NCBI GenBank assembly: GCA_937868795.1
Contig: CALMNM010000136.1
Coordinates: 1-35,336, forward strand
DNA: 35,336 nucleotides
DNA from: an uncultured Acholeplasma sp.
Lineage (GTDB): Bacteria > Bacillota_I > Bacilli_A > Acholeplasmatales > Acholeplasmataceae
Direction: 5' to 3'
The position numbers were made by a program, and so were the translations under genes. Below are positions 21,744 to 35,330 of the stretch, in pieces. Numbering within the stretch: position 1 is the first letter of the stretch; every line of letters starts with the position of its first letter. A model generated the notes under the pieces. The model saw nothing but the letters and a program-made list of their open reading frames with translations, made no database searches and had not been told where the DNA came from.

Positions 21744-24485
21744 ATGGCAGGCAGCCGGCAGTTTTATCAAAATTCGAGTGATAACGAGAGCAGCACTGAT
21801 AGCGAGTCATATCAGGATAAGTGCACTCTCACTTTTACCCCGGATGCCAATTCTACATACCTCATCATAGCAACGGCAAATATCAATGATACCGATGGAA
21901 GTTTACTCCGGTTGTATGACGGTTCGACCGTATTGTTTGAGCACATCTATGAAGAATCGAAGGACAGCGATGATTACCCCGCAACCGGGGGGGCGGTGTA
22001 TGTATCGTTTGGAGATACCCCCGCAGAGATAACATACCGATTACAATACCACGCCCTATATAATGCCTATATCAAGTTTGCCCGGATCATCGCGATCAAG
22101 CTCACCGAAAATGACCAGATAGCCTCTGCAACATCTCGGACAACTACCACAAGCTCATCATGGCAGGATAAGGTAACAAAAACCTTTACGCCGGGCAGCG
22201 CGGGTGATTACCTGATCATTGGATCATGTACTCTTGATGGCAGTTCTAACAGCTACGACGTGCGGGCACAGATCGACGTGGACGGATCGGCGCAATATGG
22301 CTTGCTGAACGTCGAACCGGGCAGTTATAATGAAACCGCTCAAATCCCGTTCCTTTATTTCCAAAAAGTAACCCTCACGCAGGCAGAGCATACGATAAAA
22401 CTGCAATACAGCGCGGAAAGTCAAACCACGGGATGCCAATACGCTTATTTAACCATCCTCCGGCTCGATGATTTTCCAGCGGTTTATTCCGCAGAGCAGG
22501 ATACCGAACAATCGGCAACAACGCGGGCGCACAAGCTCACGCTCGATACCTCCGCAGCAGAGGCAACCGATCATCTCATCCTTGCCTCTTGCAGATGCAC
22601 CTCAAAGTCTACAAGTAACTCCGTTGGGGTTGGGTTGTATGAAGGCACAACCAACCGGGGTTTTCAGGATGAGGTTGAGATGCATGATACTTCCAATTAT
22701 CGGCATTATATGTGCGGGTTTTATACAGCCGCACCCGAGGCCACATATTATATCGATCTGTCCGGGGTTGGGGGAACGGGGTACGCCGATGATCTGCGGT
22801 TGTATGCCCTGCAACTAACTTCTTCAGAAGTTATTGTAGAATTGGTAGGAAGTACTATAGCAGAATCTAATTCATCTGGTCTTGTTGACCGACAACAAAA
22901 ACTTATTGGTTCGACGGGAGCAAGTGCCAGTTCCGAAGGAATAGTTGGTATAATTTTCAGTCTTTCTGGAACATCAGAATCATCATCAAATGCTCCAGAT
23001 GCTCTTCTTTCCCGAGACATGGCTCTCGCTGGTTCCTGTTCTGCTACCTCTTCAACTCCCGATACTGTTCTCTCTGTAGATTATGGTTTTGTTGGGGTTA
23101 CTGAAGCAATAAGCGAATCACAGGCACATTGTAGTGTTGAAAGAATTATTCAAAGTCTTGTTGGTGGAACGGCCTCAATGCAAGGGGCGCTTTCTGTTGA
23201 TTATGCTCTTTTTGGTCTTACTGAAGCGGAAGCATTTTCAGAAGGCGCTCTTGAAAAAATTGTCGGACTTGTTGGTTCTTGTTCAGCAGAATCAACGTCA
23301 GAAGGTACTCTTGACCGTCAGCAAAATTTTGCTGGTATAACAGAATCTATTTCATCATCAGAAGGTATTCTTGATCGCCAACAAAATTTTGTTGGAATAA
23401 CAGAATCTGTTTCTTCATCAGAAGGTTCTCTTGATACTGGTATTGGTTTAATTGGAACCTGTAGTGCTATTTCTTCATCAGAGGGTTCTCTCGAGGCTGG
23501 CATCGGTTTAATTGGAACCTGTAATGCAGAAGCATATTCAGAAGGTGTTATTTCTCTAACAGGAACCATTGAATTATCTGGTCTTACTGAAGTCGAATCA
23601 TCATCATCTGGTTCTCTTGATAGAAATCAAGGATTAGAAGGTTTTTGTGACCCAGTTTCCGAATCTACTGGTTTTCTATCTATTGATCGTGGATTGTCTG
23701 GAACCACTGCAGCTGAATTATCATCAGAAGGTTCTCTCTATGTCTTTAATGATGCTCTCGTTAGTGTGACGGAAGCGGAATCGACTTCATCTGGTACTCT
23801 CGTTGTAGAATGGGGATTGGCTGGAATAACCGAAGCAGGCCCGCAGTTTATAAATCCAAATGATGGAACTTTAACTCTCAATATTGGTCTTAAATCAACA
23901 ACAGAAACCGAATTGGCGACCACTGGAAGTCTGATTGTTGATTGGAGCCTCGCAGGACAAGCCGATGCTATATTTGAATCATCTGGCCTTTTCGATAAAC
24001 AACCCTCTCTTGCTGGCATTACCGAGGCTACAAGTTCATCAGAAGGAATAATAATTGTATTTATTCCCTTCGCGGGCATATCTGCAGCAATCAGTGATTC
24101 TACAGCATTTTTGAGTCGTATTATTGAAATCAGCGGTATAGCAGCAGGAGAATGTTCATCTGAAGGTTTCCTTTCACTATTAAATGGTCTCGTCGGTAGC
24201 ACAACAGCAGTATCGGGAGAAAGTGGTTTTCTCACTCTCGATCAGGCACTTGTCGGATATACAGATGCAGTTTCTGAATCTGACGGTGCTGTTGTTGTTA
24301 TTTATTCTCTTGCAGGTAAGACCGATGCAGTTTCTTCATCCGAAGCATTTCTTATAAAAATTGTTGAAATGATTGGAGCGGCTAATGCTGTTTCAGGATC
24401 GACAGGACAATTTGAAATTTTATTCCTTGTTGCATCGTGGGGAGAACCTAACGAATACATAGCACTTTTATGGAGTGAGGGATAA
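21744..24485 (+). CDS. Tail fibre / receptor-binding protein 1 (913 aa): three tandem ~115-aa N-terminal domains followed by ~25 copies of a ~20-aa periodic repeat (...SSEG.L.....L.G.TEA.S...)
   Basis: The triplicated KxTxTFTP...YLII...LQY domains and the periodic SSEG repeats are read in the translation. The N-terminal ~1.1 kb is GC-rich and the repeat region is AT-rich. Confidence 0.55.
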   Translation: MAGSRQFYQNSSDNESSTDSESYQDKCTLTFTPDANSTYLIIATANINDTDGSLLRLYDGSTVLFEHIYEESKDSDDYPATGGAVYVSFGDTPAEITYRLQYHALYNAYIKFARIIAIKLTENDQIASATSRTTTTSSSWQDKVTKTFTPGSAGDYLIIGSCTLDGSSNSYDVRAQIDVDGSAQYGLLNVEPGSYNETAQIPFLYFQKVTLTQAEHTIKLQYSAESQTTGCQYAYLTILRLDDFPAVYSAEQDTEQSATTRAHKLTLDTSAAEATDHLILASCRCTSKSTSNSVGVGLYEGTTNRGFQDEVEMHDTSNYRHYMCGFYTAAPEATYYIDLSGVGGTGYADDLRLYALQLTSSEVIVELVGSTIAESNSSGLVDRQQKLIGSTGASASSEGIVGIIFSLSGTSESSSNAPDALLSRDMALAGSCSATSSTPDTVLSVDYGFVGVTEAISESQAHCSVERIIQSLVGGTASMQGALSVDYALFGLTEAEAFSEGALEKIVGLVGSCSAESTSEGTLDRQQNFAGITESISSSEGILDRQQNFVGITESVSSSEGSLDTGIGLIGTCSAISSSEGSLEAGIGLIGTCNAEAYSEGVISLTGTIELSGLTEVESSSSGSLDRNQGLEGFCDPVSESTGFLSIDRGLSGTTAAELSSEGSLYVFNDALVSVTEAESTSSGTLVVEWGLAGITEAGPQFINPNDGTLTLNIGLKSTTETELATTGSLIVDWSLAGQADAIFESSGLFDKQPSLAGITEATSSSEGIIIVFIPFAGISAAISDSTAFLSRIIEISGIAAGECSSEGFLSLLNGLVGSTTAVSGESGFLTLDQALVGYTDAVSESDGAVVVIYSLAGKTDAVSSSEAFLIKIVEMIGAANAVSGSTGQFEILFLVASWGEPNEYIALLWSEG
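23301..23540 (+). repeat. Four tandem 60-nt coding repeat units (two near-identical pairs, about 85% and 80% identity) inside fibre gene 1
   Basis: Read directly: gaaggtactcttgaccgtcagcaaaattttgctggtataacagaatctatttcatcatca vs gaaggtattcttgatcgccaacaaaattttgttggaataacagaatctgtttcttcatca; then gaaggttctcttgatactggtattggtttaattggaacctgtagtgctatttcttcatca vs gagggttctctcgaggctggcatcggtttaattggaacctgtaatgcagaagcatattca. Confidence 0.7.
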
Positions 24486-27400
24486 TGGTTGAATATTATC
24501 TTCGATCAACAAGTTCGTATTTAAGTGATGGCGGTGCGTTTTCGAAGATAATGAGTACTTCATATACCTCGGAAACTTCTTTCCAGACGTCTGTTCCATT
24601 AATGTCAACGGTATATGGATACTTTTATACTGAAAGTCAGGTGCCATTAAATGGTAATTGGGGAACTAATTCTTTTAATGTTAATCTTTATTTATCTCCA
24701 GAAAGTGGAGTATTTCTTTACGCTAAAGTAAGAATCACCAGAGTTAATTATGCTGGAGTAGTCCAAGAATCTTCTGATTGGTCAGATGAACAACAAATTG
24801 CTTCAGAATCACAGTATTTATTTTCGTGTGATAATATTGAATGGACTTCTGGTAATTACAAAGATCGTATCCGTATTGATGTTGCATATAGAAATGCATC
24901 GGCGGCAACAGCATACAACATGGGAACTTACGTCGATGGAAGCAGTAATTATTCATATGTAGAATCTCCAATAAATTGTGAATATATCGTTTATAACCTT
25001 CGTTCAATAAATTCTGATTTGGGCGGAGGATCAGATTTTACAAAGATAATGAATAAGGAAACTGGTTCCAGAACAGCGGTAACATTTTACATGCCACAAG
25101 GAACGACACATAATAATTATTTTATTACTGAACAAAACGTTCCAGATAATGATAAATTCAATACAGGAGCAACAATAGTTTATTTCGAGGTAAGCTCAAA
25201 TGCATATTTATATACAAAAATGCGACTCCAGAGAATAAGTGCTTCTGGAACGGTTTTGGAATCTTCAAGTTATTCATCAGAACAACAAACTTCTTATGGG
25301 GGATATATTTTTGAAATTCCATCAAAAACATGGTCTGCTGGTAATGATACTGATAGAATACGACTTCATCTTGTAATGCGAGCAGTTGGTGGAAATGCTG
25401 GTGGTTCTGTTTATACCAATGAAGGATATCCAATAAGTCAGTTTTGTGCAACTTCTATTGAAGAAAGTCCATGTAATTTATCTGGAGTCACTGCAGCCGA
25501 ATCATCATCCGAAGGATATTTATCACTCAATCCTTCGATAATCAGGGGAATATGCGACGCTGTTTCCAACTCTACTGGTAATCTTGGTATAATTATACCA
25601 ATTGCAGGACAGACTAACGCTGTTGCTTCTTTAGAAGGTCATTTATCAACGATAATTCCATTATCTGGTTCATGTGCTGCCGTTTCAGAATCGACGGGAG
25701 CAATTGAAAATCAAACTTTCATTAATGGTCTTACCGAAGCAGAAGCGTCATCAGAAGGAACGTTATCGCTCATCAGGGCCATTGCTGGCGAAACTGTTGC
25801 TACCTCTGGTTCAACTGGTGTGCTCGATGTTCAGTCAGGACTTAAAGGTTCATTAATAGCGAACAGTTCATCGGAAGGTAATCTGACGTTTATAACTGGA
25901 TTATCTGGAACTACAGCGGCTGTATCTGGTTCATCGGGTGCTCTTTCTTTTGTGACTATGCTTCGTGTTCAGCGGAGAACAGAATTTACTGATTTTGCTG
26001 ATCACGTTTTTATTCCTTTTACTGATGGTAGTTTCCAAGATGATATCGATCTTGTCGGAGGAGAAACATACTGGTATCGGGCCTGTAAGGTTGTCGATCA
26101 AGTAAGTCATGATTGGTCAAATATAACTTATGCGACATACGCTTCCACATCAGTTTTAATTGAAGGCACTACATCGGCTATATCTTCATCTGAAGGTATT
26201 CTGACACTTGATGTTGGCCTTGCAGGGACTACAGCGGCTGTTAGTGCTTCTTCTGGTGCTCTGTCGGTAGAAATAAAATTATTAAGTCTTGTTGAAGCAG
26301 AATCTTCGTCAGAAGGTTCTCTCAATGTTGATTATGCTCTCGGTGGAGTGACGGTTGCTGAATCTCTTTCATTCGGTGCTCTCGAGGTAGGACAATTTCT
26401 TATCGGAGAAACAGAAACAGTTTCGTCGTCCAGTGGTTCATTAAGTGTTGATTATGCACTTGCTGGAATTGCATATTGTGGTAGTGAAGTTGTAAATCCA
26501 GAATTTGAATACGGGCTTGATGGGTGGGAATACGACGATCTTGGTGGATCAATAACTATTGAACCTTATGGTTCTGGAAATTGTGTTAAACTCGCTGCAA
26601 ATCCATCAGATTATGTTTATATCTATCAAGAATGTCCGAATAATACTAAATCCAATTTATTACTGGTTGATATTAATGTAACTGAAGTCAATTCTTTAGT
26701 TTATATAACCCTCGGATGTAATTTATGGACAGGAAGAACTCCACCATTTGATCCTCCGCCGTATTATAGTTATGCATTTCTTGGTTCCGTATCAATAACG
26801 TCACCGACTGCAGGAATGATTCGTGTTGCAATTCCATTTGATCCAATATTATTGGGATATCCAAATTCCTACTTTGATGTTTATGTTGACGTTGGAGATG
26901 CAACAGCATACGTCGATAAAATTATTCTAACAGAATCAGCGACCCTTGATTTACAATCTGGTCTTATTGGAACTACTGCAGCCGAAGCATCAAGTGAAGG
27001 TTTCCTCTCGCGTGATATTGCTATTGCGGGTCAGACGGACGCTATTTCTGGTTCTTCTGGTATTATCGTCGAGCTGGCTGATCTCGTTGGAGATTCATCG
27101 GCGGTAAGCTCATCCAGTGGTTCACTTTCAATCGATTGTGCGTTAATTGGAATCACAGCGGCTGAATCTACATCGGAAGGCGAATTAACACTCAATATCA
27201 GCCTTGCAGGTTCTTCAATTGCTGAATCTGCAACAGAAGGTAGGCTTGTTGGTGATGTTCCATTTGAAGGTTCTTGTTCTGCCGTTTCAAGTTCAGAAGG
27301 AACGATTACCTTTACTATTCATATTGCAGGAACGTGTGCGGCAGAAAGCAGTTCATCGGCGACCCTCTATAATTACTGCTTCCTTTCGGGCACTACTGCT

Positions 27401-27763
27401 GCTGTTTCATCGACTGCAGGCCACGTTTCAGTAATCAGATACCTGTATGGTCAGACTGATGCCGTTTCATTCAGTGAAGCTGACCTTGTTAATATTCAAA
27501 CTCTCGATATTGCAGGTTCATGCACGGCGATATCTGGTTCTGAAGGTATCCTTTACATTCAGACAGAAGGTAAAGAAATTGTCCTGTTTGATTCGACTAT
27601 TTCCCGAATTATCGAATTTGACAGCACAATTACAAGAGTAACAGAACCCACTTCAACCATAACTCTCCTATTATTATTCGATTCAACAATCGACACTCTC
27701 ATCGAAGATGAAAGTACGATTACCAGAATATTAGAATTTGATTCGGAGGTTCCAGATGACTGA
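24485..27763 (+). CDS. Tail fibre / receptor-binding protein 2 (1092 aa), paralogous to fibre 1. It has two tandem ~150-aa N-terminal domains, SSEG-type 20-aa repeats, an embedded CBM-like beta-sandwich domain (~26481-26930) and C-terminal 11-12-aa FDSTITRI-type repeats
   Basis: Start overlaps the upstream stop (ATAATG). The repeat families and the CBM4/9-like opening motif N-P-E-F-E-Y-G-L-D-G-W-E-Y are read in the translation. The whole gene is AT-rich. Confidence 0.55.
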   Translation: MVEYYLRSTSSYLSDGGAFSKIMSTSYTSETSFQTSVPLMSTVYGYFYTESQVPLNGNWGTNSFNVNLYLSPESGVFLYAKVRITRVNYAGVVQESSDWSDEQQIASESQYLFSCDNIEWTSGNYKDRIRIDVAYRNASAATAYNMGTYVDGSSNYSYVESPINCEYIVYNLRSINSDLGGGSDFTKIMNKETGSRTAVTFYMPQGTTHNNYFITEQNVPDNDKFNTGATIVYFEVSSNAYLYTKMRLQRISASGTVLESSSYSSEQQTSYGGYIFEIPSKTWSAGNDTDRIRLHLVMRAVGGNAGGSVYTNEGYPISQFCATSIEESPCNLSGVTAAESSSEGYLSLNPSIIRGICDAVSNSTGNLGIIIPIAGQTNAVASLEGHLSTIIPLSGSCAAVSESTGAIENQTFINGLTEAEASSEGTLSLIRAIAGETVATSGSTGVLDVQSGLKGSLIANSSSEGNLTFITGLSGTTAAVSGSSGALSFVTMLRVQRRTEFTDFADHVFIPFTDGSFQDDIDLVGGETYWYRACKVVDQVSHDWSNITYATYASTSVLIEGTTSAISSSEGILTLDVGLAGTTAAVSASSGALSVEIKLLSLVEAESSSEGSLNVDYALGGVTVAESLSFGALEVGQFLIGETETVSSSSGSLSVDYALAGIAYCGSEVVNPEFEYGLDGWEYDDLGGSITIEPYGSGNCVKLAANPSDYVYIYQECPNNTKSNLLLVDINVTEVNSLVYITLGCNLWTGRTPPFDPPPYYSYAFLGSVSITSPTAGMIRVAIPFDPILLGYPNSYFDVYVDVGDATAYVDKIILTESATLDLQSGLIGTTAAEASSEGFLSRDIAIAGQTDAISGSSGIIVELADLVGDSSAVSSSSGSLSIDCALIGITAAESTSEGELTLNISLAGSSIAESATEGRLVGDVPFEGSCSAVSSSEGTITFTIHIAGTCAAESSSSATLYNYCFLSGTTAAVSSTAGHVSVIRYLYGQTDAVSFSEADLVNIQTLDIAGSCTAISGSEGILYIQTEGKEIVLFDSTISRIIEFDSTITRVTEPTSTITLLLLFDSTIDTLIEDESTITRILEFDSEVPDD
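27584..27750 (+). repeat. C-terminal short coding repeats (about five 11-12-aa units FDSTISRIIE / FDSTITRVTE / ...STITLLLL / FDSTIDTLIED / ESTITRILE)
   Basis: Read in the translation of the last ~55 codons of fibre gene 2. Confidence 0.55.
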
Positions 27764-28069: not shown

Positions 28070-28095
28070 GAGGGTTATTTTCCCCTCAATTTTTG
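28070..28095. terminator. Candidate bidirectional intrinsic terminator at the convergence point (GAGGG-TTATTTTC-CCCTC followed by AATTTTT on +, preceded by A-run/T7)
   Basis: The 5-bp stem and flanking T-runs on both strands are read directly; the stem is short and overlaps the last SNF2 codons. Confidence 0.3.
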
Positions 28096-29757
28096 AAGGA
28101 TTTCTTTTCTCACATTTTCATCATTGATGGCCTGACCATCGACAACCTGATCAAATAAATCCTGCTTGGTGTCGAGAACTTCTTTTACTCTCTCTTCAAT
28201 ATCTTCGGCGATGAGATTAATGATAATCTTATCATTCTTGGCTCCAGTTCGATGAATACGATCAATTCTCTGGTTAAGTTTCGCAGGATTCCACGGGATA
28301 TCAAAATTAATGAGGATATCGACAAACTGCAGATTCATTCCATATCCGAAAATCTCGGTGGCAATAAGCACTTTGAATTTATCCTCTTTGAAATCCTCGA
28401 TAGCTTTGACTCGCTCATCAGCACTGCTATCACCTGTAAGAATCCTTATTCCAGTATTTCCTTCTCCTGTGAGGTAGCGATTCAGCATATGAGCGATGGT
28501 TTTGAACTGCGTGAAGATGAGCACTTTGTTATCGCCTGCCTCATCGAGAATTGTCGCTACCTCTTGGAATTTGTTATCGCAATGGTCAGGCGGAAGGGTG
28601 CGCGGAATGTAACCGCTTCCCTTCAACGAATTTACCATCGGAGAGGTTGAATCATAGAACATACGGAGATCGTCAGCAATTTCACGGAGAAGGATGAGTG
28701 CTCCGAGTGCGGCGGTATCGCTGGTCTGGTCGTTGTTTGCAAATCTGCGAATACCATCGATAACCTGATGTTGTAAAGGTGTCAGTGGTATGATGCGGTT
28801 TTGGATGATCTTTTCGGGGAGTTCAGCCACATCGCATTTCTTACGACGAATCATCAGCGGCGATACCCGCTGCAGGAAATCACTCAAATTCTTATAACCA
28901 ATAAGTTCATGATATCCATCAGGTTTTTGTTGCCACTCACAATATTGGCTCTTAAATTCTCGAGTTGTCATGAATTCAGGAGCGACAACGGATATGATGT
29001 TGAAAAAGTTGTTAAGACTGTTTTCGACGGGAGTTCCTGTCAGAGCGATGAATGCATGGACACGGGGCCGAAGCCAGTTCAGTTCACGCCATATTCTGGT
29101 CTTAACATTCTTGAACTTTGATGCTTCATCGGCGATAATAACAACATCGTTCCAGAACGTCTGAATATCTCTGGTATCACGGACAAAAGATTCATACGTC
29201 GTGAGAATAATGGCTGGATCACCTGATTGCATATAATAATCATATGCAGTGATTCTCGACGCACGGGTTCCTTTCTTTCCAGACAGGATAATGGAATCCT
29301 TATCGATGAAGCGTTTAATCTCACTCTGCCATTGAGGAAGCAGCGATGATGGTGCAAGAATGATAACCTTTCTTTTCTCCTGCATCGAAATATCGATGAG
29401 TGGCATCATCTGAACAGTCTTTCCAAGGCCCATCTCATCAGCGATAAGATAGAACTTCTTGTGGAGAGAGTAAAAAGCACCAACGGCCTGATAATCAAAG
29501 AGAAATGGATAGTCTTTCTTTATCGTGAGTGCTTCCTCGAAAACCATTTTTTCCGAGAGTTTCAGTTGTTCACGAATGGTCAATACTCTTTCACGCAGGT
29601 AGGGGATACCCTCAAGCCTTACAAGGTTGTCATTGGTAGCGGGAACAATCCACTGTTTCTTCCCTGCATCCCACGTTCTTCCAACGCAGGATTTCACTAC
29701 CGCAAGGTCACTATAGAAATTTTCTCCCTGTAAATTAACACGAAGTTCCTGTTTCAT
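28075..29757 (-). CDS. SNF2-family DNA-dependent ATPase/helicase (560 aa) with a ~90-aa N-terminal extra domain
   Basis: Motif I DEMGLGKT, motif II IIADEASKFKN, motif III LTGTPVEN and motif VI QRIDRIHRTG are all present in order; ATG with an AGGTGA SD. Confidence 0.9.
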   Translation of the reverse strand: MKQELRVNLQGENFYSDLAVVKSCVGRTWDAGKKQWIVPATNDNLVRLEGIPYLRERVLTIREQLKLSEKMVFEEALTIKKDYPFLFDYQAVGAFYSLHKKFYLIADEMGLGKTVQMMPLIDISMQEKRKVIILAPSSLLPQWQSEIKRFIDKDSIILSGKKGTRASRITAYDYYMQSGDPAIILTTYESFVRDTRDIQTFWNDVVIIADEASKFKNVKTRIWRELNWLRPRVHAFIALTGTPVENSLNNFFNIISVVAPEFMTTREFKSQYCEWQQKPDGYHELIGYKNLSDFLQRVSPLMIRRKKCDVAELPEKIIQNRIIPLTPLQHQVIDGIRRFANNDQTSDTAALGALILLREIADDLRMFYDSTSPMVNSLKGSGYIPRTLPPDHCDNKFQEVATILDEAGDNKVLIFTQFKTIAHMLNRYLTGEGNTGIRILTGDSSADERVKAIEDFKEDKFKVLIATEIFGYGMNLQFVDILINFDIPWNPAKLNQRIDRIHRTGAKNDKIIINLIAEDIEERVKEVLDTKQDLFDQVVDGQAINDENVRKEILQKLRGK

Positions 29758-29897: not shown

Positions 29898-30491
29898 CTA
29901 TGCTGTGAGTGCACCAAATACGCGATTGGCAACAATCTCTTCTGATGCATTCGCGTGAACGATCAAACATCCCTCCCACCATTCTGAATCACGAAGATAT
30001 ATCTCCTGAACCTTTAAAAGCTTTGGGATATACGTGGCATCCATTCCATCGTGACCATTGGCAAATCTCTTTTCAAGAGTTGCCCTATCAGCGACGAGAA
30101 GTATGACATAATCAGGCTGATACGAGTAATTGTGCATCATGCACATATATTCGTAGGCCGAATCGATGGAACACTGCAGGTGCTGGGCGATTTCGACGGT
30201 CTGATAAGCAATCCTCGATTGAAGATATCTATCGGTGATAATCAGATCGGTTCTCACATAAGGATCAATGACTTCACGGAGATGAAGCTGATGATCTTTC
30301 ATGAAGGTGAATAGCCGAGAGAACGGGTCTGGATCATTGAGAAGTTTGTATTTCTCTTCCCGTGTCATCTTATACGGTTCCTTCGTAAAGATAATGTTTG
30401 GATATTCTTCTTCAACGGTAAACATTGTTTGGAGGTTGGAAATCAACGTTGATTTTCCTACCCCGTCAACCCCTTCAATAGCAACTAACAA
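29898..30491 (-). CDS. tmk: Thymidylate (dTMP) kinase-like nucleotide kinase (197 aa)
   Basis: P-loop IEGVDGVGKST and the DRY motif (ITDRYLQS) characteristic of thymidylate kinases. No in-frame ATG exists; the start is TTG, 1 nt after the upstream stop, with AAGGAG ~12 nt upstream. Confidence 0.65.
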   Translation of the reverse strand: MLVAIEGVDGVGKSTLISNLQTMFTVEEEYPNIIFTKEPYKMTREEKYKLLNDPDPFSRLFTFMKDHQLHLREVIDPYVRTDLIITDRYLQSRIAYQTVEIAQHLQCSIDSAYEYMCMMHNYSYQPDYVILLVADRATLEKRFANGHDGMDATYIPKLLKVQEIYLRDSEWWEGCLIVHANASEEIVANRVFGALTA

Positions 30492-30492
30492 A

Positions 30493-31164
30493 TTAGCACA
30501 TCTCCTTTAGCCATTTTCTCGTCGTATGTGTGACTTTGACTTTAAGACAATTGTTCCTTGCATCATCAATAAAATCACCAAAACGTGGATACGTTTCCAT
30601 GATTTCTTTGGCCTTCTTTTCGCCAATACCCGCCATTTGACAGTAATGGACGAAATTAGGGTCAAGATCAGTAACTTTCTTTTTCTTGAATTTTGTTTCA
30701 AGTTCGGAAGCCGTTCTTATTTCACGGTGTTCGACGAACTTTCGATAGAACAGAAATATTCCATCGATGAGTTGAGTGTCGTTTGCAAATTCGACGATAT
30801 GTACGAATGGATATTTGGCTGAAATTGATGCCTTCAACCCCTTCGTATGTTCAGTAGTCCAACCCTTGATGTAATTGTTTGAGAAGTATATGTTTTCGAA
30901 CTTTCCAGATATAAAGAGGTAGGATAAAGGGAAGTTCGAATTCATGCGCTTCAGTTGGTTATCGAGGCGACCAGAACGCTTGGAGAGGATTAAATCGCTG
31001 ACAGTCTTTCTCTCGATGCAAATGTCCGATTCGAGATACTCGTCTCTCGTCCAGATATAATCCCCCGTATCCAATTCCTGAACTTCGTGAGGAATGTTCT
31101 GCTTGTTCGCTGCTTTGGTCACCCGCGCAACCATATCCTGTTCTCGTCCGTCGATCAATAGCAT
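30493..31164 (-). CDS. XPF/Mus81-type ERCC4 nuclease, short form with C-terminal HhH2 (about 223 aa)
   Basis: ERCC4 signature TGDYIW...ICIERKTVSDLILS (GDxn-ERK-x3-D) plus a helix-hairpin-helix pair (MAGIGEKKAKEIMETYP). Start set at ATG 31164, 5 nt after the primase stop; the track start at 31272 would overlap the primase gene by ~100 nt. Confidence 0.7.
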   Translation of the reverse strand: MLLIDGREQDMVARVTKAANKQNIPHEVQELDTGDYIWTRDEYLESDICIERKTVSDLILSKRSGRLDNQLKRMNSNFPLSYLFISGKFENIYFSNNYIKGWTTEHTKGLKASISAKYPFVHIVEFANDTQLIDGIFLFYRKFVEHREIRTASELETKFKKKKVTDLDPNFVHYCQMAGIGEKKAKEIMETYPRFGDFIDDARNNCLKVKVTHTTRKWLKEMC

Positions 31165-31169
31165 CCATC

Positions 31170-32186
31170 TCACCTGTAAATTGCGAGAATGTGAGAGCCT
31201 GAATCTCCCTTTTTGCAGTGAGCACAAAGTCGAGAACTTCTGCAGAAACCTTCTCGTCGTAAAGACTCGCAAGAAGGGAATAAGGATTCATCTCGCTCAT
31301 AGATGTGTTTTGCTTGCCGCTCCTCTCGTATGCAATGAACAGCCTCGGAGACTCCTCTCTTTTGTGCGGTGAGATACCGAGTAATAATATCACAGGCGTT
31401 CCCGTATAATATTCCCGAATCTCGCAGGTAAACAATAAGTAGGAATCTACCCCGCCATCCGACGCGAGTATGAGAGGCATTGGCGAGCAATGAGGCGATG
31501 CAAGGAGGCATTTGTGACAGTATTTCGTCAGAATCAATCTGCGCTTTCACCTCTTCGGTTACTTCAACCTCATAAGATGATTCTTCTGAACTATCGAAGC
31601 CAGATACATCGAATAATTCTTCTCCATTGATTTCGAATTCAAATCTCTGTTCTTTTGCAAGATTGGAATGATATTCGAAACCTTTGATGATCTCATTAGC
31701 AAAAATCGGGATGCAATATCGCTGACGTTTTGTATTCCAAGTGTTCGGAATCGTTGCAACGCGGGCAATATCACCGAAAATTGCTTTATCAAAATGACAA
31801 CAATACTCTTTCAAAAAGTAATCATGTACATTTGTCAGACAAGCTTTCTTATTCTTCAGATTTTCGTACCCCTTCGTGAAGAGGTAAACGTGGTAGCCGC
31901 CACCAGAAAAAAGCAATAAATGTTTAAGATTTGCTTTTCGAAGGTGGAATGTAAAAGCCATCGTATTTTCGAAGGCTTCTGGCCCATCAAAATCAAAGAA
32001 TATCTTGTCGAGATCGAGAGAAATTTTATCGAAGTGTTGACTTCCTGTGAAATTGTAAACAGAAGAAAACAATCTTACTTTGCCATTTAAACGATTGATT
32101 GTGGAGTAAAACTCCTTTCTATCAACCGTTTTTCTGTACGGATATGCGACCTGTCTTGGAAATGTGGAATAGAGCAGATCGTACAA
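31170..32186 (-). CDS. Archaeo-eukaryotic-type primase / primase-polymerase (AEP superfamily) (338 aa)
   Basis: AEP motifs: motif I FFDFDGPE (hhhDhD) and motif II SGGGYHVYL (sGxGxHhh). TTG start with AAGGA 8 nt upstream, immediately after the Cas4-like stop. The Cys/His-rich C-terminal region is a possible Zn-binding domain. Confidence 0.6.
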   Translation of the reverse strand: MYDLLYSTFPRQVAYPYRKTVDRKEFYSTINRLNGKVRLFSSVYNFTGSQHFDKISLDLDKIFFDFDGPEAFENTMAFTFHLRKANLKHLLLFSGGGYHVYLFTKGYENLKNKKACLTNVHDYFLKEYCCHFDKAIFGDIARVATIPNTWNTKRQRYCIPIFANEIIKGFEYHSNLAKEQRFEFEINGEELFDVSGFDSSEESSYEVEVTEEVKAQIDSDEILSQMPPCIASLLANASHTRVGWRGRFLLIVYLRDSGILYGNACDIITRYLTAQKRGVSEAVHCIREERQAKHIYERDESLFPSCESLRREGFCRSSRLCAHCKKGDSGSHILAIYR

Positions 32187-32191
32187 ATCAA

Positions 32192-32923
32192 TCAGTCCTT
32201 AATAATGTCATCGGTGTAGCCGTCACAGAGATTAATGAATTTACAATATGAACAGAGACGTGACCGACTTCTCGGAAACATTGCTCCGTCGTTACTCTTC
32301 ATATTCTCCATGTGAGCCAGCATATCAGCATAATGTTTGTCATATTCGTCTTCGTTAACGTCGATTACGAAAGTTTTCTTTGGAAATTGTGTGAAGAACA
32401 TCCCGATTTTCGATGCATTGATACCAAGACACCGACGAGCAAGTATGACATAGACATAAAGCTCGAAAATGTAATCGTCCATTTTCGGTTTATAGAATTT
32501 GCCTGTCTTGTAATCGATAATCCAATATTCACCATCTTTAAGATAAATGGCATCAATATACCCCGATAAATCAAGTTCATCATCCTCAACCCTTTGCTCA
32601 TGAAGTTCTGCCCGACCAAGACCATACTTATCAAGAATCGTGAAGAGATTTGCGAGATTCTTTTCACAGAACTGCACTCCATCGTCAGTCAAATTGATGG
32701 CATCCATATGGATATCGATAACAGATTCATCAGCATTGGGGTCATTAAATAATTCCAGAACTTTATGCACGACGTTACCGTTCTGCACCTGATGGGAAGG
32801 ACTTTCCCTAATTGACCGTCCAAGCTCTGTCCGATTCTGGAAATAGTACTGTCTCGGGCAAGTCTTGAACGTGTTAATCTTTGACTTGCTAAACGTCCTT
32901 CTTTTTACTACTTGTTCGCTCAA
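32192..32923 (-). CDS. Cas4 / RecB-family PD-(D/E)XK exonuclease with Fe-S cluster cysteines (about 243 aa)
   Basis: N-terminal Cys (TCPRQYYF), GYIDAIYL, IIDYKTGK and C-terminal C-x2-C-x5-C (CSYCKFINLC). TTG start (32923 preferred for its 6-nt spacing to GGAGGAGG). Confidence 0.7.
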   Translation of the reverse strand: MSEQVVKRRTFSKSKINTFKTCPRQYYFQNRTELGRSIRESPSHQVQNGNVVHKVLELFNDPNADESVIDIHMDAINLTDDGVQFCEKNLANLFTILDKYGLGRAELHEQRVEDDELDLSGYIDAIYLKDGEYWIIDYKTGKFYKPKMDDYIFELYVYVILARRCLGINASKIGMFFTQFPKKTFVIDVNEDEYDKHYADMLAHMENMKSNDGAMFPRSRSRLCSYCKFINLCDGYTDDIIKD

Positions 32924-32949
32924 CAACCTCCTCCGTGGTTAATTTTAAC

Positions 32950-32961: not shown

Positions 32962-33005
32962 AGTCGGAAAGGGGAATCGAACCCCTACTTATTTCCTTTT
33001 CCGAC
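32962..33005 (-). other. tRNA-like acceptor-stem / T-arm minihelix (not a full tRNA): 7-bp acceptor-like stem GUCGGAA/UUCCGAC, 12-nt linker, T-arm AGGGG-UUCGAUU-CCCCU, then a discriminator
   Basis: Hand-folded from the reverse complement. The T-loop UUCGAUU matches the T-Psi-C-R-A-N-Y consensus and the closing pair is G-C. The 5-prime strand overlaps the last 7 codons of the Zn-finger gene and the stop TAG lies in the T-stem. No D arm or anticodon arm can be formed. Confidence 0.45.
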
Positions 33006-33299
33006 AGATATTTTGGGAGCATTTTTGCTCCCCCTTGGCCTACCTCTCGGTTTGCCTGTTTTAATATCCGCTTTTTTATTAACGGCATTTTGTATTCTTT
33101 CCATTTTCATCTCTTCGTTACGAGTGATTTTCTTGGCAATTAATTGATAATTCTTTGGCATTGGGACAGTTTGTGCTCTTTTTGTACCGATATCAACAGG
33201 CCACCCACACCACGGACAAATTGCCCATTCATGGTCAGGCATTTTATCTTTCATATTTCCAAAATATTTGGAACAGTGGGTGCACTTGTATTCCCTCAT
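32985..33299 (-). CDS. Small zinc-ribbon protein with a C-terminal AT-hook-like motif (104 aa)
   Basis: C2C2 (CTHC...CPWC) at the N-terminus and GKPRGRPRGSKN (R-G-R-P core) at the C-terminus. The ATG abuts the RNR stop. Confidence 0.5.
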   Translation of the reverse strand: MREYKCTHCSKYFGNMKDKMPDHEWAICPWCGWPVDIGTKRAQTVPMPKNYQLIAKKITRNEEMKMERIQNAVNKKADIKTGKPRGRPRGSKNAPKISVGKGNK

Positions 33300-35330
33300 T
33301 TAGCACCTCGACCATCCACAAGCAGGACACTTTCTGCAACCCTCTTCCATAGCAATCACTTCACCACATTCAGGACACCTTGGAACATGAGTCAATTCTT
33401 TCGTCGGCAATGAGTCCATTATGATACAATTATCTTCAATCATATCACGACAAAGAATGGCCTCTTTTTCACCATATTCAAAGGTGGTGCGCTCTTCGAG
33501 AACTTTCCCGATAATGTTGGCACATGACCGTCCTGCAGACTTTGGATTTTTCATAGCAACAGGACATTCAACAGATTTGAGCGTCCTGACAATATCGGTT
33601 GCAGGGACGTTCCACCGTAATCCCAACGATATCATTAATCCAAGCGCCTCACTCATGGCGCTACAACCGCCTCCACGATTGTTAATGATGGTTTCATAAG
33701 GGTAATCGTCCATCTGATTAACGGTAATCATCAGTTTACCACATCCCGAACGCAATTTGTCGGTTGTGCCTGTGAGAACCCGTGGACGCTTCGGGAGAAG
33801 TCTTACTTCACCATCGGTAGAAACAAACGGTTGATGATGATTAATAACGCGATTAGAAGCTGACGTCGGAAGTTCTTCTTCTGACTTTACCTCTTTTTCT
33901 TTCAGAGTTAAAACTTCATCCTTACGAGAGCCTGAACGATAGAGAGTGACACCTTTACACTTTTTCTGCCATGCATAAATAACAGCCGCAGCAACGTCCT
34001 CTTTCGTAGCGCTAAATGGAAGATTGACCGTTTTGCTAACCCCAGCATCACAATAACGCTGGAAAATTGCCATGAGATCGATCTGCGTTCTCCAAAATAC
34101 ATCGAAGGTTGTTACGAGTAATCGCTGATCTTCTTCAGTAGTGTATGGAGCATCCCGAAGTGTGCCGTGTTCATAAACATACTGAATAAGCTCATTGTAT
34201 TGGCTTTCAGATAATCTATTCTTAAAGCGACTTTCAAAAATCGGATGAACAACGAAGTATTCTCGCCCAACAGTATTCTTGCGTTTCAGGACGTAAGAAA
34301 ATACAGGTTCAATTCCAGATGAACAATCAGCAAGGAACGATATAGAACCCGTCGGAGCGATACACGTCAGGGCCACGTTGCGACGCATATATCCACCATA
34401 CTTTGTATAATATGGTGAATATCCTCGAGTCTCGGCAAGTCTGGCAGAATGAATATCAGCAACCTTTTGAATAAATTTCATTACCTCTTCAGCCACGTCA
34501 TAAGAATCTTCGTGTCCATAGGGGATTCCCATTTTGAGTAACATATCGGCGAAACCCATGACACCAAGACCAATTTTTCTGGTAAATTTGGATGCTTCGT
34601 CAATTTGAGGAATCGGGTAGTTATTCATATCAATGACATTATCGAGGAATTCGACAGCATCTTTGATAATCTTTTCAAGATAATCCCAATCAATTCCACC
34701 GTATTCATCAACAAAATTTACAAGGTTAATGCTTCCAAGGTTGCAGGATTCAAAGGGGTAGAGTGGTTGCTCACCGCAGGGGTTGGTTGCAGTTATCGGG
34801 CCAAGCTTCGGTGTTGCAGCATCAGTATCGATGTTAATCCTGTCATAAAACAGGAATGATGGTTCACCGTTTGTCCACTGGTTTTCGATGATTTTATTGA
34901 ACAGGTCTTTGTTCTTGCAGGTGTATCCCTGTCCAATAACATCATTCATAAACTCATCATCAACCATCACCGAGAAATTGAAATTGGCAAGTTTCCCTTC
35001 GACGTGTTTTGCAGTAATGAACTTCTCAATATCGGGATGATCATATCGTAGGATGCCCATATTGGCTCCACGTCGGCGACCACCCTGTTTTACGGTCTCG
35101 GTAGCGGCATTGAATACTTCCATGAAAGAGAGTGGGCCTGACGCTACCCCTTTGGTAGAGCCAACGGTGGAGCCTGCTGACCGAAGGTTGGAGAAATTAA
35201 ATCCAGTTCCTCCGCCTGTTTTGTGAATGAGAGCCGTCCACTTGATAGCGTCGAAAATTTCCTCCATCGAATCACCAACAGGAAGAACAAAGCAAGCAGA
35301 AAGTTGACCAATTTCTGTGCCTGCATTCAT
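33300..35330 (-). CDS. nrdJ: Ribonucleotide reductase catalytic subunit, class II (adenosylcobalamin-dependent, NrdJ-like); N-terminus at or beyond the window edge
   Basis: Active-site region NPCGEQPLYPFESCNLGSINL and a C-terminal Cys-rich zinc ribbon (CPECGEV...CRKCPACG). At 676+ aa it is long; the first Met is 6 nt from the window end, so the true start may lie outside. Confidence 0.8.
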   Translation of the reverse strand: MNAGTEIGQLSACFVLPVGDSMEEIFDAIKWTALIHKTGGGTGFNFSNLRSAGSTVGSTKGVASGPLSFMEVFNAATETVKQGGRRRGANMGILRYDHPDIEKFITAKHVEGKLANFNFSVMVDDEFMNDVIGQGYTCKNKDLFNKIIENQWTNGEPSFLFYDRINIDTDAATPKLGPITATNPCGEQPLYPFESCNLGSINLVNFVDEYGGIDWDYLEKIIKDAVEFLDNVIDMNNYPIPQIDEASKFTRKIGLGVMGFADMLLKMGIPYGHEDSYDVAEEVMKFIQKVADIHSARLAETRGYSPYYTKYGGYMRRNVALTCIAPTGSISFLADCSSGIEPVFSYVLKRKNTVGREYFVVHPIFESRFKNRLSESQYNELIQYVYEHGTLRDAPYTTEEDQRLLVTTFDVFWRTQIDLMAIFQRYCDAGVSKTVNLPFSATKEDVAAAVIYAWQKKCKGVTLYRSGSRKDEVLTLKEKEVKSEEELPTSASNRVINHHQPFVSTDGEVRLLPKRPRVLTGTTDKLRSGCGKLMITVNQMDDYPYETIINNRGGGCSAMSEALGLMISLGLRWNVPATDIVRTLKSVECPVAMKNPKSAGRSCANIIGKVLEERTTFEYGEKEAILCRDMIEDNCIIMDSLPTKELTHVPRCPECGEVIAMEEGCRKCPACGWSRC

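What the first reader, a model, noticed from the sequence alone, without database searches (positions are those of the whole stretch)
30493..31164. Stand-alone short XPF/Mus81-family (ERCC4) nuclease with HhH2 tail encoded by a virus
The GDxnERKx3D signature and the tandem HhH are unambiguous in the translation. The gene is translationally coupled to the primase upstream (stop-to-start 5 nt) and to thymidylate kinase downstream (1 nt). A structure-specific flap or fork nuclease coupled to primase suggests a role in processing replication or recombination intermediates. No PCNA-interacting motif was checked.
Basis: partly seen in the sequence, partly recalled or inferred. Interest (0 to 1): 0.5.

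Follow-up and report, generated by a model that had tools for sequence, protein, structure and literature searches.

The report
Viral short XPF-type nuclease beside primase
A tailed virus, probably of archaea, encodes a small DNA-cutting enzyme of the XPF/Mus81 family directly after its primase gene; the identification is correct but such viral enzymes are already annotated elsewhere, and the only fresh point is that this nuclease, the primase and a second nuclease travel together as a conserved three-gene block.

Summary
Window 30493-31164, on the minus strand, encodes a 223-aa protein. It has an ERCC4 nuclease domain (Pfam E 1.8e-15) with every catalytic residue intact. The predicted fold matches Aeropyrum XPF, the Pyrococcus Hef nuclease, human XPF and Mus81. 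The 5-nt and 1-nt gaps to the neighbouring genes are exact, and the upstream gene is a real AEP primase (fold-confirmed).

Two corrections apply. Only the first helix-hairpin-helix is canonical (GIG); the second has lost its glycine hairpin, and no Pfam HhH model was reported for the protein. There is also no PCNA-binding tail, which crenarchaeal XPF requires.

The kind is already known. A 94%-identical protein is labelled "ERCC4-type nuclease" by JGI. Methanobacterium viruses PhiF1 and Drs3 carry annotated ERCC4 genes. XPF-like nucleases are also reported in Asgard, Methanoperedens and haloarchaeal viruses, and ERCC4-domain proteins occur in giant eukaryotic viruses.

What I did not find described is a block of Cas4-like nuclease, AEP primase and ERCC4. 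It recurs in 12 distinct lineages down to about 23-28% identity, whether the polymerase is family B or DnaE-like. Seven of eight informative loci chosen only by the primase have it.

The most likely role is a homodimeric, PCNA-independent nuclease for 3'-flaps, forks and nicked junctions that serves viral replication and recombination. Verdict: new member of a known kind, modest interest.

The parts
30493..31164 (-). Gene for the 223-aa short XPF/Mus81-family (ERCC4 + HhH2) nuclease, stop codon included
   Evidence: Translation. Pfam ERCC4 E 1.8e-15. PHROG 3490. PDB Hef and ApeXPF. AF2 model pLDDT 77.6. Foldseek top hits are ApeXPF, Hef, XPF and Mus81.
30730..31164 (-). ERCC4 nuclease domain, residues 1-145
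   Evidence: Pfam match covers residues 4-128. Model elements E2-5 to H129-145. Hef nuclease domain 1j22: TM 0.82 normalised to the target, rmsd 2.7 A.
31141..31155 (-). N-terminal acidic motif I-D5-G-R7-E8
   Evidence: D5, R7 and E8 are each conserved in at least 90% of the 10 close relatives. D5 and E8 are nearly invariant in the 28-sequence set. The motif aligns to VDSRE of Hef.
31057..31065 (-). G34-D35-Y36 of the ERCC4 signature
   Evidence: G34 and D35 invariant in A1. D35 invariant in A2. Aligns to GDY of Hef.
30994..31014 (-). E51-R52-K53-T-V-S-D57 catalytic core (ERKx3D)
   Evidence: E51, K53 and D57 invariant in 28 relatives; R52 nearly invariant. Aligns to IERKSANDL of Hef and VERKTSSDF of ApeXPF.
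30673..30729 (-). Lysine-rich, low-confidence linker, residues 146-164
   Evidence: pLDDT below 50 for residues 155-164. Crenarchaeal XPF likewise has a short linker between its nuclease and HhH2 domains (PMC2836553).
30496..30672 (-). C-terminal HhH2-type domain, residues 165-223. First hairpin G179-I-G181 lies at 30622-30630; the second hairpin is degenerate (K-V-K-V-T-H-T-T).
   Evidence: Colinear but weak alignment to ApeXPF residues 142-205. In alignment A2 the second hairpin column holds GIG in PhiF1 ORF54, P0020, P0023, P0028 and P0045, and GVG in P0034, but K[VIL]xxxT in the window's clade. Helices 169-177, 182-191, 195-203 and 213-222. No Pfam HhH hit.
31170..31175 (-). Shine-Dalgarno-like AGGTGA, 5 nt upstream of the nuclease ATG and overlapping the primase TGA stop
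   Evidence: Read directly from the sequence.
31170..32186 (-). AEP-superfamily primase-polymerase with a C-terminal 4-Cys PriL-CTD-like domain (338 aa); middle gene of the conserved cassette
   Evidence: Invariant D65/D67, S94-G95-x-G97-x-H99, D133, and C229/C306/C315/C321 in 33 homologues. PHROG 16345 'primase' E 6e-7. Weak PriL Pfam hit. AF2 pLDDT 90. Top 50 PDB fold hits are all AEP enzymes.
32192..32926 (-). Cas4-like PD-(D/E)XK nuclease (244 aa); first gene of the conserved cassette
   Evidence: Pfam PDDEXK_1 E 5.8e-23 and Cas_Cas4 E 5e-8. PHROG 'exonuclease' families. NCBIfam cas4 at 57 bits, below the cut-off of 65.
29898..30491 (-). dTMP (thymidylate) kinase, TTG start 1 nt after the nuclease stop
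   Evidence: Pfam Thymidylate_kin E 6e-19. NCBIfam DTMP_kinase E 1e-18. Same position in L005, L012 and L013.
28075..29757 (-). SNF2-family helicase/translocase, last gene of the minus-strand replication block
   Evidence: Pfam SNF2-rel_dom E 4e-34 and Helicase_C E 9e-26. Conserved after the ERCC4 gene in L005, L009 and L013.

Best explanation
The gene encodes a catalytically competent, stand-alone 'short' XPF/Mus81-family endonuclease: an ERCC4 nuclease domain, a flexible linker and an HhH2 DNA-binding/dimerisation domain. It belongs to the replication module of a tailed dsDNA virus whose host is probably archaeal.

By analogy with crenarchaeal XPF and the Hef nuclease, it most likely acts as a homodimer. 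The HhH2 domains would bind and bend duplex DNA at a branch point. One nuclease domain would use the metal-binding D/E/K cluster to cut the strand carrying a 3' flap, a fork arm or a nicked junction a few nucleotides from the branch. Because it ends exactly at the last HhH2 helix with no PIP tail, it probably does not use PCNA as crenarchaeal XPF does.

It is inherited as a block with a Cas4-like 5'-end-processing nuclease and an AEP primase. I therefore infer that it works with them on viral replication forks and recombination intermediates: end resection (Cas4-like), priming on displaced or unwound strands (primase), and cutting of 3' flaps, D-loops or stalled forks (XPF). This would resemble recombination-dependent replication or fork restart and would debranch the concatemer before packaging.

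Shown: domain identity, intact active-site residues, fold, gene order and its conservation. Inferred: dimer state, substrate preference, PCNA independence, and cooperation with the primase and the Cas4-like nuclease.
For: Family and active site:
- Pfam ERCC4 scores 57.5 bits against a cut-off of 24.
- The protein aligns to the Hef nuclease with GDY and ERKx3D matched.
- D35, E51, K53 and D57 are invariant in 28 relatives down to 24% identity.
- Foldseek top PDB hits are ApeXPF, Hef, XPF-ERCC1, Mus81-Eme1 and FANCM-FAAP24.

HhH2 domain:
- It aligns colinearly to the ApeXPF HhH2 and to relatives that keep two GIG hairpins.

No PIP:
- No canonical PIP box lies at either terminus in any of the 28 family members scanned; the only two strict-pattern matches are internal to the nuclease domain of two distant relatives. 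The window's protein and the four closest relatives of the same length end with the last helix.
- SsoXPF needs its last six residues to bind PCNA, which is an essential cofactor (PMC2836553).

Gene context:
- All gaps from the Cas4-like gene to the kinase are 5 nt or less. Promoter-like and terminator-like matches across the scanned region were no more frequent than in shuffled sequence.
- The block Cas4-like > primase > ERCC4 occurs in ERCC4-selected loci L012, L003, L005/L013, L009 and L011.
- It also occurs in primase-selected loci PhiF1, L014, L015, L016, L019/L020, L022 and L024, which is 7 of 8 informative loci. In L022 only the primase-ERCC4 adjacency was checked.
- The primase and ERCC4 genes overlap by 14-50 nt in four lineages.
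- Divergence of the three proteins is rank-correlated: rho 0.95 for primase against ERCC4 and 0.85 for primase against Cas4-like.
- The block persists whether the polymerase is family B or DnaE-like.

Other:
- Hef is placed at halted replication forks in archaea (PMC3905845).
- There is no match to any defence-system model.
Against: No biochemical data exist for this or, as far as I found, for any prokaryotic-virus short XPF.

Dimerisation could not be modelled.

The second HhH hairpin lacks its glycines, so DNA binding may differ from ApeXPF.

Gene adjacency and correlated divergence are expected for any genes co-inherited in a viral replication module, so they do not prove physical or functional cooperation.

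In L009 and L011 other genes have been inserted between the primase and ERCC4 genes. In L023 the primase has no ERCC4 neighbour.

In Drs3, vir080 and L010 the ERCC4 gene sits without this primase, so the nuclease can work without it.

L011 also carries a T7 endonuclease I-like gene, so the ERCC4 enzyme is not necessarily the junction resolvase.

The window is only part of the genome. Close relatives are about 73 kb, so other resolvases or a viral clamp may lie outside it.
Confidence: 0.6

Rival explanations
1. It is the virus's Holliday-junction or branch resolvase, acting late to debranch concatemers for the terminase. This would be the functional analogue of T4 endonuclease VII or T7 endonuclease I, and the position next to the primase would be incidental.
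For: Tailed viruses generally need a debranching nuclease (established phage biology). No recognisable RuvC, RusA, Hjc or endo VII/endo I gene was found among the window proteins scanned. In L010 the homologue lies two genes upstream of the large terminase. Mus81-type enzymes cut nicked junctions (family knowledge).
Against: In 12 lineages the gene sits in the replication block rather than the packaging block. L011 has both an ERCC4 gene and a T7 endo I-like gene. The window covers only about half of a roughly 73-kb genome. It also holds an unassigned ORF (3143-3688) with an E...D...DxK pattern that could be a PD-(D/E)XK resolvase. XPF-family homodimers prefer 3' flaps and nicked junctions over intact four-way junctions (family knowledge).
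Confidence: 0.2
2. It is a DNA-repair enzyme in the narrow sense, giving NER-like or cross-link and UV-damage repair of viral or host DNA. This is what papers on Asgard and Methanoperedens viruses have proposed for their ERCC4 genes.
For: Authors of the Asgard and Methanoperedens virus papers interpret viral ERCC4 genes as repair genes. NCBIfam's nearest models are 'Hef nuclease' and '3'-flap repair endonuclease Xpf'.
Against: Scores are far below the equivalog cut-offs: 39 against 610 and 36.5 against 300. No other NER-type partners (XPB, XPD or XPG/Fen1-like) were seen in the window or in the flanks of relatives. The strict linkage is to a primase and to nucleotide-metabolism genes.
Confidence: 0.1
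3. It is a non-catalytic or structural ERCC4-fold partner like ERCC1, Eme1 or FAAP24; or it is a weapon against host DNA or host defence rather than a replication factor.
For: Foldseek also lists ERCC1, Eme1 and FAAP24 chains among its matches. Degenerate HhH hairpins are typical of the non-catalytic partners (family knowledge).
Against: All catalytic residues are present and invariant, unlike ERCC1, Eme1 and FAAP24. There is no second ERCC4 paralogue in the window or in relatives to pair with. No PADLOC hit was found.
Confidence: 0.05

Closest known systems
Crenarchaeal short XPF (Aeropyrum pernix XPF, PDB 2BGW/2BHN; Sulfolobus solfataricus XPF)
   Same: Same two-domain architecture in a protein of about 220 aa: ERCC4 nuclease, short linker, HhH2. 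Same GDxnERKx3D active site. It is the best full-length fold match. It is described as a homodimeric 3'-flap endonuclease (PMC2836553).
   Different: Only about 17% identity. NCBIfam Arch_Xpf scores 36.5 bits against a cut-off of 300. There is no C-terminal PIP tail, whereas SsoXPF depends on PCNA. The second HhH hairpin has lost its glycines. It is encoded by a virus, next to a primase.
Nuclease domain of euryarchaeal Hef (Pyrococcus furiosus, PDB 1J22-1J25)
   Same: Best sequence match in the PDB: E 6.5e-6 with the single protein and 5.8e-9 with the family profile. TM 0.82 normalised to the target, rmsd 2.7 A. NCBIfam Hef model positions 574-756 align to residues 3-205.
   Different: Hef carries a large N-terminal helicase; the viral protein has none. 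The score is far below the equivalog cut-off, 39 against 610.
ERCC4-type nucleases of methanogen viruses (Methanobacterium virus PhiF1 ORF54, QGH71210.1; Drs3 ORF13; Methanobacteriales viruses vir080 and vir249)
   Same: Same size and domain order. PhiF1 has the same Cas4-like > primase > ERCC4 gene order, and all three proteins are homologous: 28%, 29% and 31% identity.
   Different: 28% identity. PhiF1 ORF54 keeps two canonical GxG hairpins. PhiF1 replicates with a DnaE-like polymerase, this lineage with family B. In Drs3 the gene lies between two methyltransferases, without this primase.
ERCC4/XPF-like nucleases of Asgard, Methanoperedens and haloarchaeal viruses, and of giant eukaryotic viruses (ASFV EP364R)
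   Same: Virus-encoded ERCC4-domain proteins, some with HhH domains. They are structural matches in BFVD and are noted in the literature.
   Different: Only distant structural similarity (15-23% identity). Some lack the HhH2 tail (for example HSTV-2, 161 aa) or carry extra domains. Gene contexts were not compared here.
Eukaryotic Mus81-Eme1 and XPF-ERCC1
   Same: Same nuclease fold, catalytic signature and HhH2 module. They act on 3' flaps, forks and nicked junctions.
   Different: They are obligate heterodimers with a non-catalytic partner and large extra domains. The viral protein has no paralogous partner gene and is presumably a homodimer.

Membership tests
XPF/Mus81 (ERCC4) nuclease superfamily | ERCC4 domain detected above the curated threshold | tested here: met
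   Pfam PF02732 at 57.5 bits against a gathering score of 24, E 1.8e-15, residues 4-128. PHROG 3490.
XPF/Mus81 (ERCC4) nuclease superfamily | Catalytic signature GDxn(V/I)ERKx3D plus an N-terminal acidic residue, as opposed to the degenerate sites of ERCC1, Eme1 and FAAP24 | tested here: met
   G34-D35, I50-E51-R52-K53, D57, and D5/E8. These are conserved in all or at least 90% of the close relatives. D35, E51, K53 and D57 are invariant in 28 distant relatives. They align residue for residue with Hef.
XPF/Mus81 (ERCC4) nuclease superfamily | Restriction-endonuclease-like alpha/beta fold of the nuclease domain | tested here: met
   AF2 model pLDDT 77.6. Foldseek against Hef 1j22: TM 0.82 normalised to the target, rmsd 2.7 A, probability 1.00. 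The top 25 hits are all XPF, Mus81, FANCM, ERCC1 or FAAP24 chains.
XPF/Mus81 (ERCC4) nuclease superfamily | C-terminal tandem helix-hairpin-helix (HhH2) domain | tested here: inconclusive
   The first hairpin is canonical (G179-I-G181). The second position is aligned but lacks glycines. Pfam reported no HhH model at E<=1, although that scan drops most matches above about 0.1. The model shows four helices plus a loop where the fourth helix and hairpin are expected. More distant relatives carry PF12826, PF14520 and PF00633 hits.
XPF/Mus81 (ERCC4) nuclease superfamily | Metal-dependent, structure-specific cleavage of 3'-flap, fork or nicked-junction DNA by a dimer | not testable with these tools
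   Requires purified protein. Only a monomer could be modelled.
Crenarchaeal PCNA-dependent short XPF (SsoXPF/ApeXPF type; NCBIfam NF040956) | C-terminal PCNA-interacting peptide after the HhH2 domain | tested here: not met
   No Qxx[LIVM]xx[FYW][FYW]-type motif, strict or loose, lies at either terminus of the window's protein. The only terminal match in the 28 sequences is a loose one near the N-terminus of P0020. The sequence ends ...TRKWLKEMC at the last helix. The requirement in SsoXPF is described in PMC2836553.
Crenarchaeal PCNA-dependent short XPF (SsoXPF/ApeXPF type; NCBIfam NF040956) | Score at or above the equivalog cut-off | tested here: not met
   36.5 bits against a cut-off of 300.
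Euryarchaeal Hef (NCBIfam NF010337) | N-terminal SF2 helicase fused to the nuclease-HhH2 module; score at or above the equivalog cut-off | tested here: not met
   The protein is 223 aa with no helicase. It scores 39.1 bits against a cut-off of 610, and only model positions 574-756 are matched.
Conserved viral cassette Cas4-like nuclease / AEP primase / ERCC4 (as in Methanobacterium virus PhiF1 ORF56-55-54) | All three homologous genes on one strand, in this order, adjacent or nearly so | tested here: met
   Window 32926-30493, with 5-nt gaps. Homology of all three to the PhiF1 genes. The same order is seen in 11 further lineages.

The most novel reading that the evidence does not exclude
The Cas4-like nuclease, the AEP primase with its PriL-like Fe-S domain, and the short XPF form one functional unit that archaeal-type tailed viruses have kept together since before their replicative polymerases diverged (family B versus DnaE-like). 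In this unit the XPF nuclease would be recruited to forks or D-loops by the primase, or by the primed junction itself, instead of by PCNA. That would couple cleavage of branched DNA to repriming: a compact, virus-specific module for recombination-dependent replication or fork restart. I did not find such a module described in the papers I searched.
Probability: 0.25. Interest if true: 0.55.

Novelty: new member of a known kind. Interest (0 to 1): 0.3.

Why it matters
The gene itself is a routine, correct annotation. Its value lies in the context. [quoted passage not shown] This holds across a wide and deeply diverged set of tailed viruses, one of which is cultivable (Methanobacterium virus PhiF1) and one of which may be a marine magrovirus. 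If the three proteins work together, they would give a minimal, tractable system for studying how branched-DNA cleavage and repriming are coupled. They would also provide a PCNA-independent short XPF to compare with the well-studied crenarchaeal enzyme. It is also a useful marker block for recognising this class of viral replication modules in metagenomes.

Tried and rejected
1. tblastn of the nuclease against 50,697 GenBank phage records at E 1e-5 found nothing. Relatives appeared only through the primase or through PhiF1 ORF54 as the query.

2. A scan of GTDB species genomes for proviral copies of the close family found none.

3. A primase-based genome scan found five MAG contigs. Their bin labels are inconsistent: Bacteroidetes, Bacillota, Woesearchaeota, 'uncultured archaeon' and Methanosuratincola. 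A PhiF1-like ERCC4 protein (same 90%-identity cluster as PhiF1 ORF54) is labelled 'Hydrothermia bacterium'. Bin labels were therefore rejected as host evidence, and the host remains unproven.

4. A sequence search of the PDB with the primase profile gave nothing. The fold search was needed instead.

5. The 236-240-aa ORF upstream of the RFC-like gene in relatives was tested as a candidate sliding clamp by Pfam and PDB sequence search, with no hit. It stays a guess based on position.

6. Window ORF 3143-3688, with a possible PD-(D/E)XK pattern, gave no significant hit in Pfam, PHROGs, NCBIfam or PDB, and only a marginal AbiD hit in PADLOC at E 0.0097.

7. Rfam found no RNA family in the window. 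Promoter and terminator scans of the block were at or below shuffle expectation.

8. The idea that a degenerate second hairpin is special to this clade was rejected. Of 232 short homologues, 120 have one GhG motif, 61 have two, 48 have none and 3 have three.

9. A defence or anti-defence reading was rejected, because the nuclease and the primase have no PADLOC match.
Full report
**Observation**

The finding's coordinates are exact, but the gene is on the minus strand. Its ATG is at 31164-31162 and its TAA at 30495-30493, giving 223 aa. The mechanical ORF extends to a TTG at 31272, but that stretch overlaps the upstream gene. Seven of the nine close homologues begin MLLID/MLLVD at the position that corresponds to 31164. 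P0009 begins LLIID there, P0006 is called from further upstream, and P0007 is a shorter call that starts at M11.

The upstream gene's TGA stop lies at 31170-31172, which leaves 5 nt before the ATG. An AGGTGA Shine-Dalgarno-like motif spans that stop. The downstream gene starts with TTG at 30491, 1 nt after the nuclease stop, and is preceded by AAGGAG. 'Translational coupling' is therefore plausible but not required, because each gene has its own ribosome-binding motif. Across the scanned block, promoter-like and terminator-like matches were no more frequent than in shuffled sequence.

**Identity of the protein**

Several independent searches agree:
- Pfam ERCC4 scores 57.5 bits against a cut-off of 24, E 1.8e-15.
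- PHROG 3490 is 'ERCC4-type nuclease'.
- The best PDB sequence match is the Pyrococcus furiosus Hef nuclease domain, at E 6.5e-6 with the single protein and 5.8e-9 with a ten-sequence profile. Aeropyrum XPF, human XPF and Mus81 follow.

The signature residues are all present: D5/R7/E8, G34-D35-Y36 and E51-R52-K53-x3-D57. Each is conserved in all or at least 90% of the close relatives. D35, E51, K53 and D57 are invariant across 28 relatives down to 24% identity.

An AlphaFold2 model (pLDDT 77.6) finds ApeXPF, Hef, XPF-ERCC1, Mus81-Eme1 and FANCM-FAAP24 as its top matches.

**The HhH tail**

The 'unambiguous tandem HhH' needs qualifying. Residues 165-223 contain one canonical hairpin (G179-I-G181). 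The family profile aligns residues 160-221 colinearly with both hairpins of ApeXPF, but only weakly at 8.4 bits.

In the 28-sequence alignment, the second-hairpin column reads GIG in PhiF1 ORF54 and several distant relatives. In the window's clade and its nearest neighbours it reads K-[VIL]-x-x-x-T. Pfam reported no HhH model for this protein, although that scan drops most weak matches. The precomputed Pfam annotation of the close relatives lists ERCC4 alone, while more distant relatives carry HHH_2, HHH_5 or HHH hits.

So the domain is an HhH2 homologue with a degenerate second hairpin. This is common. Among 232 short homologues, 120 have one GhG motif in the tail, 61 have two, 48 have none and 3 have three.

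**PCNA**

Crenarchaeal XPF is a homodimer of nuclease and HhH2 domains. It needs PCNA as a cofactor and contacts it through its last six residues (PMC2836553).

The viral protein has no such tail. No canonical PIP box lies at either terminus in any of the 28 family members scanned, and the only two strict-pattern matches are internal to the nuclease domain of two distant relatives. The window's protein and the relatives of the same length end with the last HhH2 helix (...TRKWLKEMC). NCBIfam's archaeal Xpf and Hef equivalog models match far below their cut-offs: 36.5 against 300 and 39 against 610.

The protein is therefore a member of the superfamily. It is not an orthologue of either cellular enzyme, and it fails the defining PCNA-tail feature of the crenarchaeal subfamily.

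**Surroundings**

The window is viral. It contains an HK97/encapsulin-like capsid protein, a tail tube protein and a tape measure. It also contains two very large fibre-like proteins with 20-aa periodic repeats.

These plus-strand structural genes converge on a minus-strand replication block, in this order:
1. Class II-like ribonucleotide reductase, cut by the window end.
2. Zn-ribbon protein.
3. Cas4-like PD-(D/E)XK nuclease.
4. The 338-aa upstream gene.
5. The ERCC4 nuclease.
6. dTMP kinase.
7. SNF2 helicase.

The upstream gene is a real primase. In 33 homologues the DxD, SGxGxH and D133 motifs are invariant, as are four cysteines. It hits PHROG 'primase' and, weakly, the PriL family. Its AF2 model has pLDDT 90. 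All 50 best PDB fold matches are AEP enzymes, including CAPP Prim-Pol, Prim-PolC, Sulfolobus PriS, human Pri1 and LigD-Pol.

**Related loci**

Nine close homologues at 62-94% identity exist in metagenomes. JGI already names the 94% one 'ERCC4-type nuclease'. The window itself is a public 35,336-bp contig. Relatives at 92-94% identity lie on a 72.8-kb NCBI MAG contig and a 37-kb JGI contig.

An exhaustive profile search found 1,297 cluster representatives at E<=1e-3, and those listed are mostly 200-230 aa. Only one representative covers the close family, and the next scores E 5e-46.

The gene order Cas4-like > primase > ERCC4 recurs widely:
- In all close relatives.
- In L009, where the ERCC4 protein is 42% identical, with one small ORF inserted.
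- In L011, at 36% identity, with 7-deazaguanine genes inserted.
- At 28-31% identity for all three proteins, in the cultured Methanobacterium virus PhiF1 as ORF56-55-54, the last annotated 'putative ERCC4-type nuclease'.

Loci chosen only through the primase give the fairer test. PhiF1, L014, L015, L016, L019/L020, L022 and L024 all have an ERCC4 gene immediately downstream. L016 is a Tara Oceans contig with a split family-B polymerase, a trait reported for group B magroviruses. For L022 only the primase-ERCC4 adjacency was checked, and the contig is cut. L023 does not have the ERCC4 gene, and a TnpB element sits there instead. L021 is cut at the contig end. That makes 7 of 8 informative loci.

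In four lineages the two genes overlap by 14-50 nt. Bit-score divergence from the window's proteins is rank-correlated across 11 loci, with rho 0.95 for primase against ERCC4 and 0.85 for primase against Cas4-like. The block persists although the polymerase is family B in some lineages and DnaE-like in others.

Correlation of this kind is expected for any co-inherited genes. It shows stable linkage, not interaction.

**Limits of the linkage**

ERCC4 genes also occur without this primase:
- In Methanobacterium virus Drs3 the gene lies between two methyltransferases, downstream of an ERF recombinase and a DUF5906 protein.
- In gut Methanobacteriales virus vir080 no annotated primase lies within 5 kb.
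- In L010 it lies two genes upstream of a terminase.

L011 additionally encodes a T7 endonuclease I-like protein. In that lineage, therefore, the ERCC4 enzyme is not the only candidate junction resolvase.

**Mechanism**

The shown facts are a catalytically intact ERCC4 domain, an HhH2-type tail, no helicase, no PIP, no paralogous partner gene, and stable placement in a replication block between a primase and nucleotide-metabolism genes.

From the established behaviour of ApeXPF, SsoXPF and Hef, I infer a homodimeric, metal-dependent endonuclease that cuts 3' flaps, fork arms and nicked junctions near the branch point. Hef is associated with halted replication forks in archaea (PMC3905845).

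The most economical role is processing of branched replication and recombination intermediates. In this scheme the Cas4-like enzyme resects ends, the primase primes displaced strands, and the XPF clips flaps or D-loops. This is comparable in logic to T4 recombination-dependent replication and also debranches DNA before packaging.

A pure late resolvase role, a narrow repair role and a non-catalytic role are less well supported. They are listed with the evidence in the rival explanations.

**Comparison with what is known, and novelty**

Virus-encoded ERCC4/XPF-like nucleases are already on record:
- PhiF1 and Drs3 annotations.
- Asgard viruses, with explicit mention of XPF-like enzymes carrying HhH domains (10.1101/2021.07.29.454249).
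- Methanoperedens viruses and plasmids (10.1101/2023.08.02.551345).
- Halo- and nanohaloarchaeal viruses.
- ASFV EP364R-like proteins of giant viruses, and HSTV-2.

This is therefore a new member of a known kind. I did not find the three-gene cassette described in the papers I could search. That library is incomplete, so the cassette may have been noted elsewhere.

**Host**

The host is not established. The cassette is shared with a Methanothermobacter virus. One relative (L019) encodes an archaeal-type histone fold. Relatives also carry an RFC-like clamp loader and a family-B polymerase. All of this points to archaea, but MAG bin labels for related contigs are contradictory.

**Verdict**

Novelty is low for the gene and modest for its conserved context.

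Noticed in passing
window 32926-30493 (minus strand); L006 8179-10501; L014, L015, L016, L019, L024: A three-gene block (Cas4-like PD-(D/E)XK nuclease, AEP primase with a 4-Cys PriL-like domain, short ERCC4 nuclease) is conserved in 12 lineages down to about 23-28% identity. It persists regardless of whether the polymerase is family B or DnaE-like. The only collinear tblastx similarity between the window and the 18.8-kb replication region of PhiF1 that was fetched is confined to this block.
   Followed up: yes
window 21744-24485 and 24485-27763 (plus strand): Two very large fibre-like ORFs (913 and 1092 aa) with no family hit are built largely from a 60-nt (20-aa) periodic unit, roughly G-x-T-x-A-E-S-S-S-E-G-x-L. 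Many diverged copies are shared between the two genes.
   Followed up: partly
window 3143-3688 (minus strand): A 181-aa ORF with no significant hit in Pfam, PHROGs, NCBIfam or PDB (only a marginal PADLOC AbiD hit, E 0.0097) carries an E...D...D-x-K pattern (AAEQRFEKLL ... HVDYFFLLDGYSFSVDVKARKK). The pattern resembles PD-(D/E)XK/Hjc-type nucleases, so this could be a separate junction resolvase.
   Followed up: partly
L012 904-1614; L013 458-1180: In the 73-kb relatives, a 236-240-aa ORF with no detectable family sits directly upstream of an RFC-like clamp-loader gene. By position and size it could be a divergent sliding clamp. Sequence searches found nothing.
   Followed up: partly
L003 10784-11836; L023 4751-5902: TnpB (OrfB_IS605/Cas12f-like) elements have inserted into the cassette region in two lineages. 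In L003 the insertion is between ERCC4 and thymidylate kinase. In L023 it is directly after the primase, where the ERCC4 gene is missing.
   Followed up: no
L003 4582-7761: The ribonucleotide reductase of this relative carries an intein with a LAGLIDADG domain. The window's copy (33300-35330, cut by the window end) has no such insert in the part visible.
   Followed up: no
L011 2933-4499 and 7302-8057: A relative has QueF-like, radical-SAM and PTPS (7-deazaguanine pathway) genes inserted between the primase and ERCC4 genes. It also encodes a T7 endonuclease I-like protein.
   Followed up: no
L019 14280-14480; L020 9018-9218: A PhiF1-like relative of the cassette encodes a 66-aa histone-fold protein (CBFD_NFYB_HMF). 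This is consistent with an archaeal host.
   Followed up: no
L021, L022, L023, L024, L025; cluster of P0163: Related viral contigs sit in MAGs labelled Bacteroidetes, Bacillota, Woesearchaeota and Methanosuratincola. A PhiF1-like ERCC4 protein (in the same 90%-identity cluster as PhiF1 ORF54) is labelled 'Candidatus Hydrothermia bacterium'. These are probably viral contigs mis-binned into cellular genomes.
   Followed up: partly
window 33300-35330 and 32985-33299 (minus strand): The ribonucleotide reductase has a C-terminal TSCPD domain followed by Cys-rich zinc-ribbon-like motifs. Abutting it with no gap is a separate 104-aa Zn-ribbon protein that is lysine- and arginine-rich at its C-terminus.
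   Followed up: no
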